In this document: in pieces, positions 56,795 through 58,038 of the stretch | Layout of the letters: every line of letters begins with the position of its first letter | Position numbering within the stretch: position 1 is the stretch's first letter | DNA from: Chiloscyllium plagiosum | Taxonomy: Eukaryota | Direction: 5' to 3' | DNA: 64,000 bases | Assembly: GCF_004010195.1 (NCBI RefSeq) | Contig: NC_057753.1 | Span: 630,330 to 694,329 of the forward strand | Made by a program: the position numbers and the translations under genes | Notes under the pieces: generated by a model | Database searches by the model: none | What the model saw: the letters and a program-made list of their open reading frames with translations, nothing else | Told to the model about the DNA's origin: nothing

Positions 56795-57069
56795 ATGTCT
56801 TTACTGCATGGGTTGACCAAACACCGAGAACAATAACGAAGGAGACAGGCGAATCACTGACCATCAACTGTGTCCTAAAAGATGCTAGCTATGCATTGAG
56901 TGGCACGTACTGGTATCTGACAAAATTGGATGCAACAAAGTGGGACCGCATATCAATTGGTGGACGATACTCTGAAACAGTGAACAAGGGATCAAAGTCC
57001 TTTTCTTTGCGACTTCGTGATCTGAGAGTTGAAGACAGTGGTGCATATCACTGTGAAGCGTATGTTGAC
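56795..57069 (+). CDS. IgNAR: IgNAR variable (VNAR) germline exon, open, canonical Cys only
   Basis: [93 protein letters not shown]22, W36, C83; short FR2-CDR2 region diagnostic of VNAR. Confidence 0.98.
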
Positions 57070-57107
57070 CACAGTAATAAACCTGATCTTCTACCAAGAC
57101 AAAAACA
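57070..57107 (+). other. V 3' RSS, 22-bp spacer
   Basis: CACAGTA + 22 nt + ACAAAAACA. Confidence 0.95.
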
Positions 57108-57307
57108 CCTTCAGATCGTCCATGAAGTAAATTGGCCTTGTTTCATCATGTCAACGCTCAACATGCACTTTGAGGCCATAATTTATGATACGGATTAGCA
57201 GGAGGCAGGTTCTAAATGGTTGTGAACAAAATTCAGCCGGAAAGTTCAAAGAACGTGCACTTAGATATTCAGTGTTGTTGTTGAACTTACAGTGACGTGT
57301 GAGCATT

Positions 57308-57388
57308 TGTTTTTGCCCTGGGCTTTATCACTGTGACAGCTGCGATGACCACAACAATCGAGAACTCGACTTCTGTAATACAGAAACT
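57308..57388 (+). other. IgNAR D1 (57336-57349, ACAGCTGCGATGAC) with 5' 12-RSS and 3' 23-RSS
   Basis: TGTTTTTGC-12-CACTGTG, then D, then CACAACA-23-ACAGAAACT. Frames read TAAM, QLR* and SCDD. Confidence 0.92.
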
Positions 57389-57577
57389 ACCAGCACACAT
57401 TGTTACCAGAACCGCAAACACTTTGATTTATTGGTTATCAGGATGGCCAGCTATTCTGGAGCTTGGTCGGATATCAAACCTGGTTTTCTGAAACAAATGT
57501 CAGAAAGTGTACATTGGTCGGAATCCAGCTTGCATTTTGTGTAACTACTTGAGGTTGTTGTATGAATGACAATGCGA

Positions 57578-57641
57578 CATGTTTGCACTGCTGTGTGTGA
57601 CTGTGTGGGATTGCACAGTGACACAAGGCACTGCACAAACC
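57578..57641 (+). other. IgNAR second D (most likely 57606-57613, TGGGATTG) with 3' 12-RSS and a weak 5' 12-RSS
   Basis: The 3' CACAGTG-12-GCACAAACC is clear; the 5' CATGTTTGC-12-GACTGTG is degenerate, so the 5' boundary is uncertain. Confidence 0.78.
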
Positions 57642-57954
57642 TCTCGAACAGTAATTCCCTTTTCTACGTCTGATGGACATGATTTCGTAATGAGCTTTTT
57701 GTAATGAATGCTGCTTTATGGAGTTAACATAAATACCAATTCGTTCACTTCTGGAATTCTATGCACATTTCACGTTGATTATAGCTCGGCAAGCTGACTT
57801 TCCGATGTCACCCAAACTCGTATTGGAGATAGCGGATGTATGAGTGAATTTAAACTGTTAACAAATGAAGATTTGTTAATGCTGTGAATATACATGGAAA
57901 TGGTGGAAAGGATGTGCTTTGGCTTATTTATTACAGGACTTTTGCGTCACTGAC

Positions 57955-57993
57955 GCTTTTTGAATGGCGTTGAATTGGAGCTGACGGATTGTG
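57955..57993 (-). other. J 5' RSS, 23-bp spacer
   Basis: GCTTTTTGA-23-GATTGTG on the + strand. Confidence 0.9.
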
Positions 57994-58038
57994 ACTGCTA
58001 CCATGAAGGAAGAGGCACTTTTCTGGCAGTGAAACCTA
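57994..58038 (+). CDS. IgNAR: IgNAR J segment (CYHEGRGTFLAVKP)
   Basis: G-X-G-T-X-L-X-V motif ending in VKP; phase-1 donor A/GTAAGC at 58039; preceded by a 23-RSS. Confidence 0.93.

What the first reader, a model, noticed from the sequence alone, without database searches (positions are those of the whole stretch)
56795..58038. IgNAR cluster with only two D segments in IgM-like RSS order
Seen: V-22 / 12-D-23 / 12-D-12 / 23-J in about 1.25 kb, with spacings of roughly 270, 260 and 380 bp and no convincing third D. Known: the textbook nurse-shark IgNAR cluster has three Ds (type III with two pre-joined), while V-D-D-J with this RSS order is the shark IgM layout. Inference: loss of one D or a lineage-specific two-D design. 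It predicts shorter CDR3s and also allows V to join the second D directly, skipping D1 with its poor CACAACA heptamer.
Basis: partly seen in the sequence, partly recalled or inferred. Interest (0 to 1): 0.7.

Follow-up and report, generated by a model that had tools for sequence, protein, structure and literature searches.

The report
Shark antibody gene with pre-fused segments
This working shark single-chain antibody gene shows two diversity pieces instead of three because the second and third are fused in the inherited DNA, likely by the immune cut-and-paste enzyme acting in germ cells; such pre-joined pieces were already reported for what is very likely this same gene.

Summary
The layout is real: V-22 / 12-D-23 / 12-D-12 / 23-J, spacers 266, 256, 380 bp, no third D. 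It is not an IgM-like design. The sister IgNAR cluster 124 kb upstream has three Ds and aligns at 84-88% throughout, except for one 407-bp gap running from the edge of the D2 5' heptamer to inside D3. The second 'D' (8 nt) is therefore a germline D2-D3 joint, most likely a RAG coding joint. Contigs from four studies and a second species bridge it. Two other clusters carry further joints (D1D2 plus D3J; D1D2D3J). Pre-joined Ds are stated for bamboo-shark IgNAR2, 5 and 6 (PMC8692893); this is IgNAR2 by position. The cluster is expressed. D1 is not skipped: 10 of 11 shown V-J joints hold a clear D1 piece. Shorter CDR3s are weakly supported (median 13). Side result: V lacks the CDR1 cysteine, and a J-encoded cysteine is kept only with a second CDR3 cysteine (6 of 6; p=0.015), suggesting a programmed CDR3 disulfide. 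The scan noted similar joints in other clusters, not this one. Verdict: known, low interest.

The parts
56625..56667 (+). Leader exon (ATG to GT donor)
   Evidence: Sequence; spliced onto V in run X6 (loose end at 56791)
56795..57069 (+). VNAR V exon, open, two canonical Cys only (no CDR1 or FR2 Cys)
   Evidence: 28 PDB matches at E<=1e-25, new-antigen-receptor/VNAR domains; best 4.8e-40
57070..57107 (+). V 3' RSS, 22-bp spacer
   Evidence: 21.0 bits
57308..57335 (-). D1 5' RSS, 12-bp spacer
   Evidence: 24.8 bits
57336..57349 (+). D1, 14 nt; one frame encodes Cys, one has a stop
   Evidence: clear piece in 10 of 11 shown V-J joints
57350..57388 (+). D1 3' RSS, 23-bp spacer, heptamer CACAACA
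   Evidence: 14.0 bits; the sister cluster has CACAGCA
57396..57422 (+). Orphan RSS-like site with 11-bp spacer, no partner; conserved in the sister cluster
   Evidence: (18.1 bits)
57578..57605 (-). 5' RSS of ancestral D2, 12-bp spacer
   Evidence: Collinear with the D2 5' RSS of L014; 16.7 bits
57606..57613 (+). Germline D2-D3 joint (8 nt, TGGGATTG); site of the 407-bp loss
   Evidence: bridged by contigs in X1, X15, X5, X6, X18
57614..57641 (+). 3' RSS of ancestral D3, 12-bp spacer
   Evidence: Collinear with the D3 3' RSS of L014; 21.0 bits
57955..57993 (-). J 5' RSS, 23-bp spacer
   Evidence: 12.6 bits
57994..58038 (+). J segment with a germline Cys codon at 57996-57998 (Tyr in the sister cluster); C1-C5 and secretory tail lie beyond the window at G000:C44:700109-707875
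   Evidence: spliced to this cluster's C1 in X16, X5, X18

Best explanation
This is an expressed IgNAR cluster whose second and third D segments are fused in the inherited DNA, likely by a RAG-mediated D2-to-D3 joining in a germ cell of an ancestor. Shown: a three-D sister cluster is collinear except for 407 bp that run from the edge of D2's 5' heptamer to inside D3; D2's 3' 22-RSS and D3's 5' 12-RSS (a legal 12/23 pair) are gone; 8 of 24 coding nucleotides remain. Inferred: RAG cut at that pair, the coding ends were trimmed and ligated, and the allele was fixed before two sampled species split. Consequence: a B cell needs three joins (V-D1, D1-DD, DD-J) instead of four, the RSS order looks like IgM by arithmetic, not by descent, and CDR3 loses one N-region junction and about 16 germline nucleotides.
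For: One 407-column gap, flanks 84.2%, 87.9%, 84.5% identical; cluster-wide collinearity over about 55 kb. Window and L014 are sister clusters (bootstrap 100 and 97; informative sites 24:6:8 and 18:15:10) and a third cluster, L015, keeps the D2-D3 interval (80.5% to L014), so this is a loss here, not a gain there. Both breakpoints lie in 12-nt coding segments; such pairs are 364 of 100,684 (0.36%) single-deletion breakpoint pairs that would leave a legal two-D cluster. Two other clusters show joints of the same kind: D1D2 and D3J in L015, D1D2D3J in L016. The joint is bridged without gap by contigs of X1 (0 differences in 478), X15 (3 in 817), X5 (1 in 521), X6 (0 in 478), four studies of organism A, and by X18 of organism B (20 differences, 2 one-base gaps elsewhere, in 401). 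Literature: pre-joined Ds in IgNAR2, 5, 6 (PMC8692893, section 26); D1-D2 fusion in nurse-shark type III (PMC4622739 passage); RAG-like germ-cell joining with base loss and little N addition (PMC2193156 passages).
Against: No positive RAG signature (P nucleotides) survives: at most 1-2 nt can be assigned to D2, and 16 of 24 coding nt are lost, more than in the L015 D1D2 joint (25 nt left of about 26), though the L015 D3J joint lost about 12 nt of J. The ends of the D2 and D3 5' heptamers share 5 nt with the first coding base (TGTGT), and organism B has A at 57607, so its joint starts with the same three letters as the sister D3; both fit a microhomology deletion too. The breakpoint odds assume uniform breakpoints. 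The ancestral D2 and D3 of this cluster are known only through a paralog about 14% diverged. Only X1 behaves like genomic DNA; X5, X6, X15 and X18 show spliced or RNA-like contigs, and X1 may not be independent of the assembly.
Confidence: 0.82

Rival explanations
1. RAG-independent deletion: slippage or microhomology repair between the similar 5' 12-RSS ends of D2 and D3 removed D2 and the spacer; D3 later lost four more bases.
For: 5-nt identity across both heptamer/coding borders; left breakpoint exactly at the heptamer edge; the joint resembles D3 (7 of 8 to its last 8 nt) and not D2; organism B variant at 57607 matches the D3 start.
Against: Needs two events, the second again inside the 12-nt D; two neighbouring clusters carry three or more other joints that all fall at coding ends; the lost RSS pair is exactly a legal 22/12 pair.
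Confidence: 0.12
2. Primary two-D design, ancestral or taken from an IgM cluster.
For: RSS order equals the shark IgM order (order recalled; two Ds per IgM cluster in PMC2435157 passages).
Against: All spacers are 84-88% identical to a three-D IgNAR cluster; the missing interval is present in both the sister cluster and an outgroup cluster; the two RSSs around the second D are the orthologs of RSSs from two different Ds. I did not align to an IgM cluster directly.
Confidence: 0.03
3. Assembly artefact or a somatic D2-D3 joint from lymphocyte DNA.
For: Somatic V-DD-J intermediates exist in shark lymphocytes (PMC2435157 passages); several bridging runs look like RNA.
Against: Somatic joints differ from cell to cell, but the same joint is bridged in four studies and, with one substitution, in a second species. 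The only alternative continuations at 57606 match the sister cluster's D2 and D3 flanks (table 7; 25 differences in 199 nt).
Confidence: 0.02

Closest known systems
White-spotted bamboo shark IgNAR2 (PMC8692893; abstract, section 26, passages and supplement text read; Figure 1B itself not visible)
   Same: Four V-bearing IgNAR clusters at 0.56-1.36 Mb of chromosome 44; the first has separate Ds, and IgNAR2, 5, 6 have pre-joined Ds; IgNAR2 is expressed. One search finds four V exons on C44 at 0.563, 0.687 (this one), 0.980 and 1.218 Mb with the same pattern, so this is IgNAR2 by position (inferred).
   Different: The text seen does not say which Ds are joined, the joint sequence, the mechanism, the sharing with a second species or D usage in transcripts. 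Figure 1B, and two papers not held or not fetched (PMID 36649810, not held; PMID 34880108, seen only as a reference), may do so.
Nurse shark type III IgNAR (PMC4622739, passages)
   Same: Three-D cluster reduced to three rearrangements by a germline D-D fusion, giving the same RSS order.
   Different: There D1-D2 are fused, CDR1 has Cys and Trp, CDR3 is restricted and expression is neonatal. Here D2-D3 are fused, CDR1 has no Cys or Trp, and the 11 joints seen are all different.
Germline-joined NS4 light chains and VD/VDD-joined heavy chains of sharks (PMC2193156, passages)
   Same: Clean loss of both RSSs and the intervening DNA, base loss at coding ends, shared across individuals.
   Different: Those joints are recent enough to show P nucleotides; this one is not. 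It is a partial join, so the gene still needs RAG.
Shark IgM cluster V-D1-D2-J (PMC2435157, passages; RSS order recalled)
   Same: Two Ds, three joins, same RSS order.
   Different: V is VNAR, spacers are IgNAR-derived, and five IgNAR-type C exons follow.

Membership tests
IgNAR cluster | VNAR-type V domain | tested here: met
   28 PDB sequences at E<=1e-25, VNAR/new antigen receptor domains; 89% to a Chiloscyllium punctatum gene model
IgNAR cluster | One V, one J, five C exons and a secretory tail in one cluster | tested here: met
   five open Ig-C-like frames at C44:700109-707875, the last with a secretory tail, collinear with the sister cluster; J spliced to this C1. Transmembrane exons not looked for.
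IgNAR cluster | Three D segments (separate or pre-joined) | tested here: met
   D1 plus a D2-D3 joint. Three separate Ds are not present.
IgNAR cluster | Secreted as heavy-chain dimer without light chain | not testable with these tools
   Protein-level property
Germline-joined (RAG) Ig segments | A legal 12/23 RSS pair and the DNA between are cleanly lost, breakpoints in coding ends | tested here: met
Germline-joined (RAG) Ig segments | Same joint across individuals | tested here: met
   X1, X5, X6, X15 (four studies) and X18 (second species); tissue of origin not known
Germline-joined (RAG) Ig segments | Hairpin signature (P nucleotides) | tested here: inconclusive
   Both ends trimmed; no full-length coding end left
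Type III VNAR | Cys and Trp in CDR1; D1-D2 fused | tested here: not met
   No CDR1 Cys or Trp; the fusion is D2-D3
Type II VNAR | Cys in CDR1 | tested here: not met
   Sister cluster has it, this V has Ser
Type I VNAR | Cys in FR2 and FR4 | tested here: not met
   None in V or in FR4 of J
Type IV (IIb) VNAR | No non-canonical cysteines | tested here: inconclusive
   True for V; 4 of 11 joints have no CDR3 Cys, 6 have two, 1 has one (hand translation table 5c)
Shark IgM cluster | VH-type V and IgM-derived intersegmental DNA | tested here: not met
   V is VNAR; spacers 84-88% identical to an IgNAR cluster; no direct IgM alignment made

The most novel reading that the evidence does not exclude
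This cluster is the germline source of a distinct VNAR class with a programmed intra-CDR3 disulfide: V lost the CDR1 cysteine, J gained one, D1 supplies the partner, and the D2-D3 fusion shortens the distance between the two so that most loops close as C-x3-4-C; B cells in which D1 is read in another frame survive only if the J cysteine is trimmed away. The germline join would then be an adaptation that tunes loop geometry, not a neutral scar.
Probability: 0.3. Interest if true: 0.45.

Novelty: already known. Interest (0 to 1): 0.2.

Why it matters
Mainly annotation value. It fixes which Ds are joined in the second most used VNAR locus of a species used for nanobody production, gives the germline D and J needed to assign repertoire reads, and places the locus in a graded series of germline joins on one chromosome end (none; D2D3; D1D2 plus D3J; D1D2D3J), a compact test bed for RAG activity in germ cells. 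The cysteine pairing between D1 and J, if confirmed in full repertoires, would explain part of the VNARs that fit none of types I-IV (18.8% in PMC8692893) and matter for library design.

Tried and rejected
Third D in 57070-57993: none by consensus scan or weight matrix; the 57396 site has an 11-bp spacer and no partner. D1 skipping as a main route: not seen in 11 joints. Single-cell RNA run X21: 0 reads laid from about 2 in 100 of the run read, no test. The run search listed no holder on record as RNA; no evidence either way. Protein searches for rearranged products of this V: 6 hits among 17 candidates at near length, none a rearranged product of this V; none among 150 longer candidates, weak evidence. 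The one joint with letters shown for X20 uses D pieces like the sister cluster's and was not counted; the one X15 row in table 5c is a V-internal joint and was not counted. A joint 57216-57336 in X18 lies on a contig with 25 differences in 180 nt and was set aside as a paralog. Paper searches found no held paper that names a D2-D3 joint in IgNAR or the D1/J cysteine pair of this locus; PMID 36649810 is not held and figures are not visible, so absence from print is not shown. Passages of PMC5192425, PMC12227049, PMC12138478, PMC12138067, PMC12907318, PMC12865624, PMC13474390, PMC10532743 and parts 1-2 of 4 of PMC11641339 were read and give no segment map of this cluster. No structure of a rearranged domain was predicted, so the disulfide is untested.

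Full report
Observation. The window holds a leader exon (56625-56667), an open V exon (56795-57069) whose solved relatives are all VNAR-type domains, two D segments and a J (57994-58038). A weight matrix trained on 14 RSSs from the other three clusters ranks these six at 12.6-24.8 bits, against 0.32 sites of 12 bits or more per shuffled interval (200 shuffles), and finds no third enclosed D. Five open constant-domain frames and a secretory tail follow at G000:C44:700109-707875.

Context. A search of the own genome gave 13 matches, four of them close VNAR exons on C44 at 562,689, 687,126 (this one), 980,280 and 1,218,492. Their V-J regions form a series: L014 has V-22 / 12-D1-23 / 12-D2-22 / 12-D3-12 / 23-J; the window lacks one interval; L015 has D1D2 joined and D3 joined to J; L016 has D1, D2, D3 and J joined.

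What happened here. The window aligns to L014 with a single 407-column gap. The gap begins at the last base of the D2 5' heptamer (57605) and ends four bases into D3; it removes D2, its 3' 22-RSS, the spacer, D3's 5' 12-RSS and the start of D3. The three remaining spacers are 84.2%, 87.9% and 84.5% identical to L014. So the RSS on the left of the second 'D' is D2's and the RSS on the right is D3's. Window and L014 are sisters among the four clusters (bootstrap 100 on leader-V-spacer, 97 on J-intron; the second segment is less decisive by informative sites, 18:15:10; four rows, none left out, unrooted, L016 the longest branch), and L015 keeps the missing interval (80.5% to L014), so the interval was lost in this cluster. 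The IgM-like RSS order follows automatically from any D-D join in the three-D layout.

Germline, not artefact. Of 8 runs laid (of 24 listed), five have a listed contig that bridges the joint without a gap there: X1, X15, X5, X6 and X18; these are four studies of organism A and one of organism B. X21 gave no reads, X16 has no listed piece across it, and X20 has only pieces that end near it. X18 differs at 20 of 401 positions, including A at 57607 within the joint. The join is thus older than the split of the two organisms (about 5% divergence) and absent from the sister cluster (12-16% divergence). Only X1 has flat, genomic-looking depth and it may not be independent of the assembly; the others show spliced or RNA-like contigs, but somatic joints would differ between cells.

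Mechanism. The lost RSS pair is a legal 22/12 pair and both breakpoints lie in 12-nt coding segments. Of 100,684 breakpoint pairs that would leave a legal two-D cluster after one deletion, 364 (0.36%) are coding-to-coding (uniform breakpoints assumed). Neighbouring clusters carry further joints at coding ends. RAG-like joining in shark germ cells, with base loss and little N addition, is argued in PMC2193156 (abstract and passages). I put a RAG coding joint at 0.82. Against it: no P nucleotides remain, D2 is almost wholly gone, and a 5-nt microhomology at the two heptamer borders allows a RAG-independent deletion followed by a 4-nt loss (0.12).

Function. Run X16, rich in V and J contigs, shows 41 V-J joint rows (15 printed) and, with the other runs, 61 rows with intervening letters (12 printed: 11 from X16, 1 V-internal row from X15, dropped); 32 contigs splice J to a sequence that translates as this cluster's C1 start. 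All 11 are in frame. By hand reading, 10 of 11 hold 6 or more exact bases of D1 and the 11th a probable mutated piece; 4 of 11 hold 5 or more bases of the 8-nt joint. X18 shows a direct V-D1 joint. So D1 is used despite its heptamer; the three-D sister cluster has a non-consensus heptamer at the same place. CDR3 lengths are 10-20, median 13, against 16 and 18 in two solved bamboo-shark VNARs of the sister type (counted) and a mode of 15-16 in a bamboo-shark library (PMC12865624 passage; definition may differ). The rows are the best supported and limited to 40 intervening letters, so this is weak support for shorter loops.

Side result. V has Ser where the sister cluster has the CDR1 Cys (also no Cys there in the C. 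punctatum model); J has a Cys codon where the sister has Tyr; D1 encodes Cys in one frame. In the 11 joints the J Cys is kept in 6, each with exactly one more CDR3 Cys (3-4 residues apart in five, 9 in one); it is lost in 5, of which 4 have no Cys and 1 has one (Fisher p=0.015). This suggests selection for an intra-CDR3 disulfide, or simply against an unpaired thiol; the sample is small and selected, and no bond was shown. An earlier unreviewed note (e1-9978436) reports a germline cysteine pair for the most joined cluster; I confirmed only that this cluster is D1D2D3J-joined.

Comparison with what is known. [quoted passage not shown] Positions and pattern match, so this is IgNAR2 (inferred from position). 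I could not see Figure 1B; the supplement text has legends only. PMC12138067 (passages) reports diverse VNAR1 and VNAR2, conserved VNAR3 and VNAR4, which fits the join series if the numbering corresponds (not tested). Nurse-shark type III is the textbook parallel, with D1-D2 fused (PMC4622739 passage); this locus is not type III. Seven paper searches found no held text naming the D2-D3 joint or the D1/J cysteine pair.

Verdict. True observation, known phenomenon, locus very likely already drawn as pre-joined. Interest 0.2; the cysteine-pairing lead would deserve about 0.45 if confirmed and tied to the join (probability 0.3).

Noticed in passing
window 57373-57445 (L014:1762-1834): A 73-nt block behind the D1 3' RSS differs at only 2 positions from the sister cluster (spacer average 88%) and holds an orphan heptamer-11 bp-nonamer site (57396-57422, 18.1 bits). 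Could be a decayed RSS, a regulatory site or a gene-conversion tract.
   Followed up: partly
L015:1820-1844 and 2225 onward (G000:C44 near 980,800-981,250): Cluster with D1-D2 joined (25 nt) and D3 joined to J; two somatic joins remain possible.
   Followed up: partly
L016, reverse strand (G000:C44 near 1,218,200): Cluster with D1-D2-D3-J all joined; only the V-to-DDDJ join remains. Subject of earlier finding e1-9978436.
   Followed up: partly
window 56791-57178, run X6 record 25; also X5 record 17: Contigs with the leader spliced onto V that continue into the unrearranged V-D1 spacer: likely sterile germline transcripts.
   Followed up: no
window 57323 and 57899: Five laid runs and more differ from the window: A at 57323 (in the D1 5' RSS spacer; X1, X5, X6, X15, X18, X20) and one extra T after 57899 (X1, X6, X18, X20); rare allele or assembly error, no effect on the RSSs.
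   Followed up: no
L017-L019 (G000:C44 near 12.18-12.24 Mb; C95439): More distant VNAR-like V exons (40-45% identity) with a one-D layout V-22 / 12-D-12 / 23-J (complete in L019); probably NARTCR V segments (label recalled, not tested).
   Followed up: partly
G000:C44:789511 onward: A further copy of the J-C intron region (80% to the sister cluster) with no V found nearby; fits the incomplete clusters described in PMC8692893.
   Followed up: no
window 32050-33701 (-): Reverse-transcriptase-like open frames, probably a LINE fragment (from the look of the translation; no family search run); the rest of 1-55700 appears intergenic with short repeats.
   Followed up: no
table 5c, joints ending at 58007-58008: 3 of 11 in-frame joints remove 13-14 nt of J, unusually deep trimming that deletes the J cysteine and part of the FR4 start.
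   Followed up: partly
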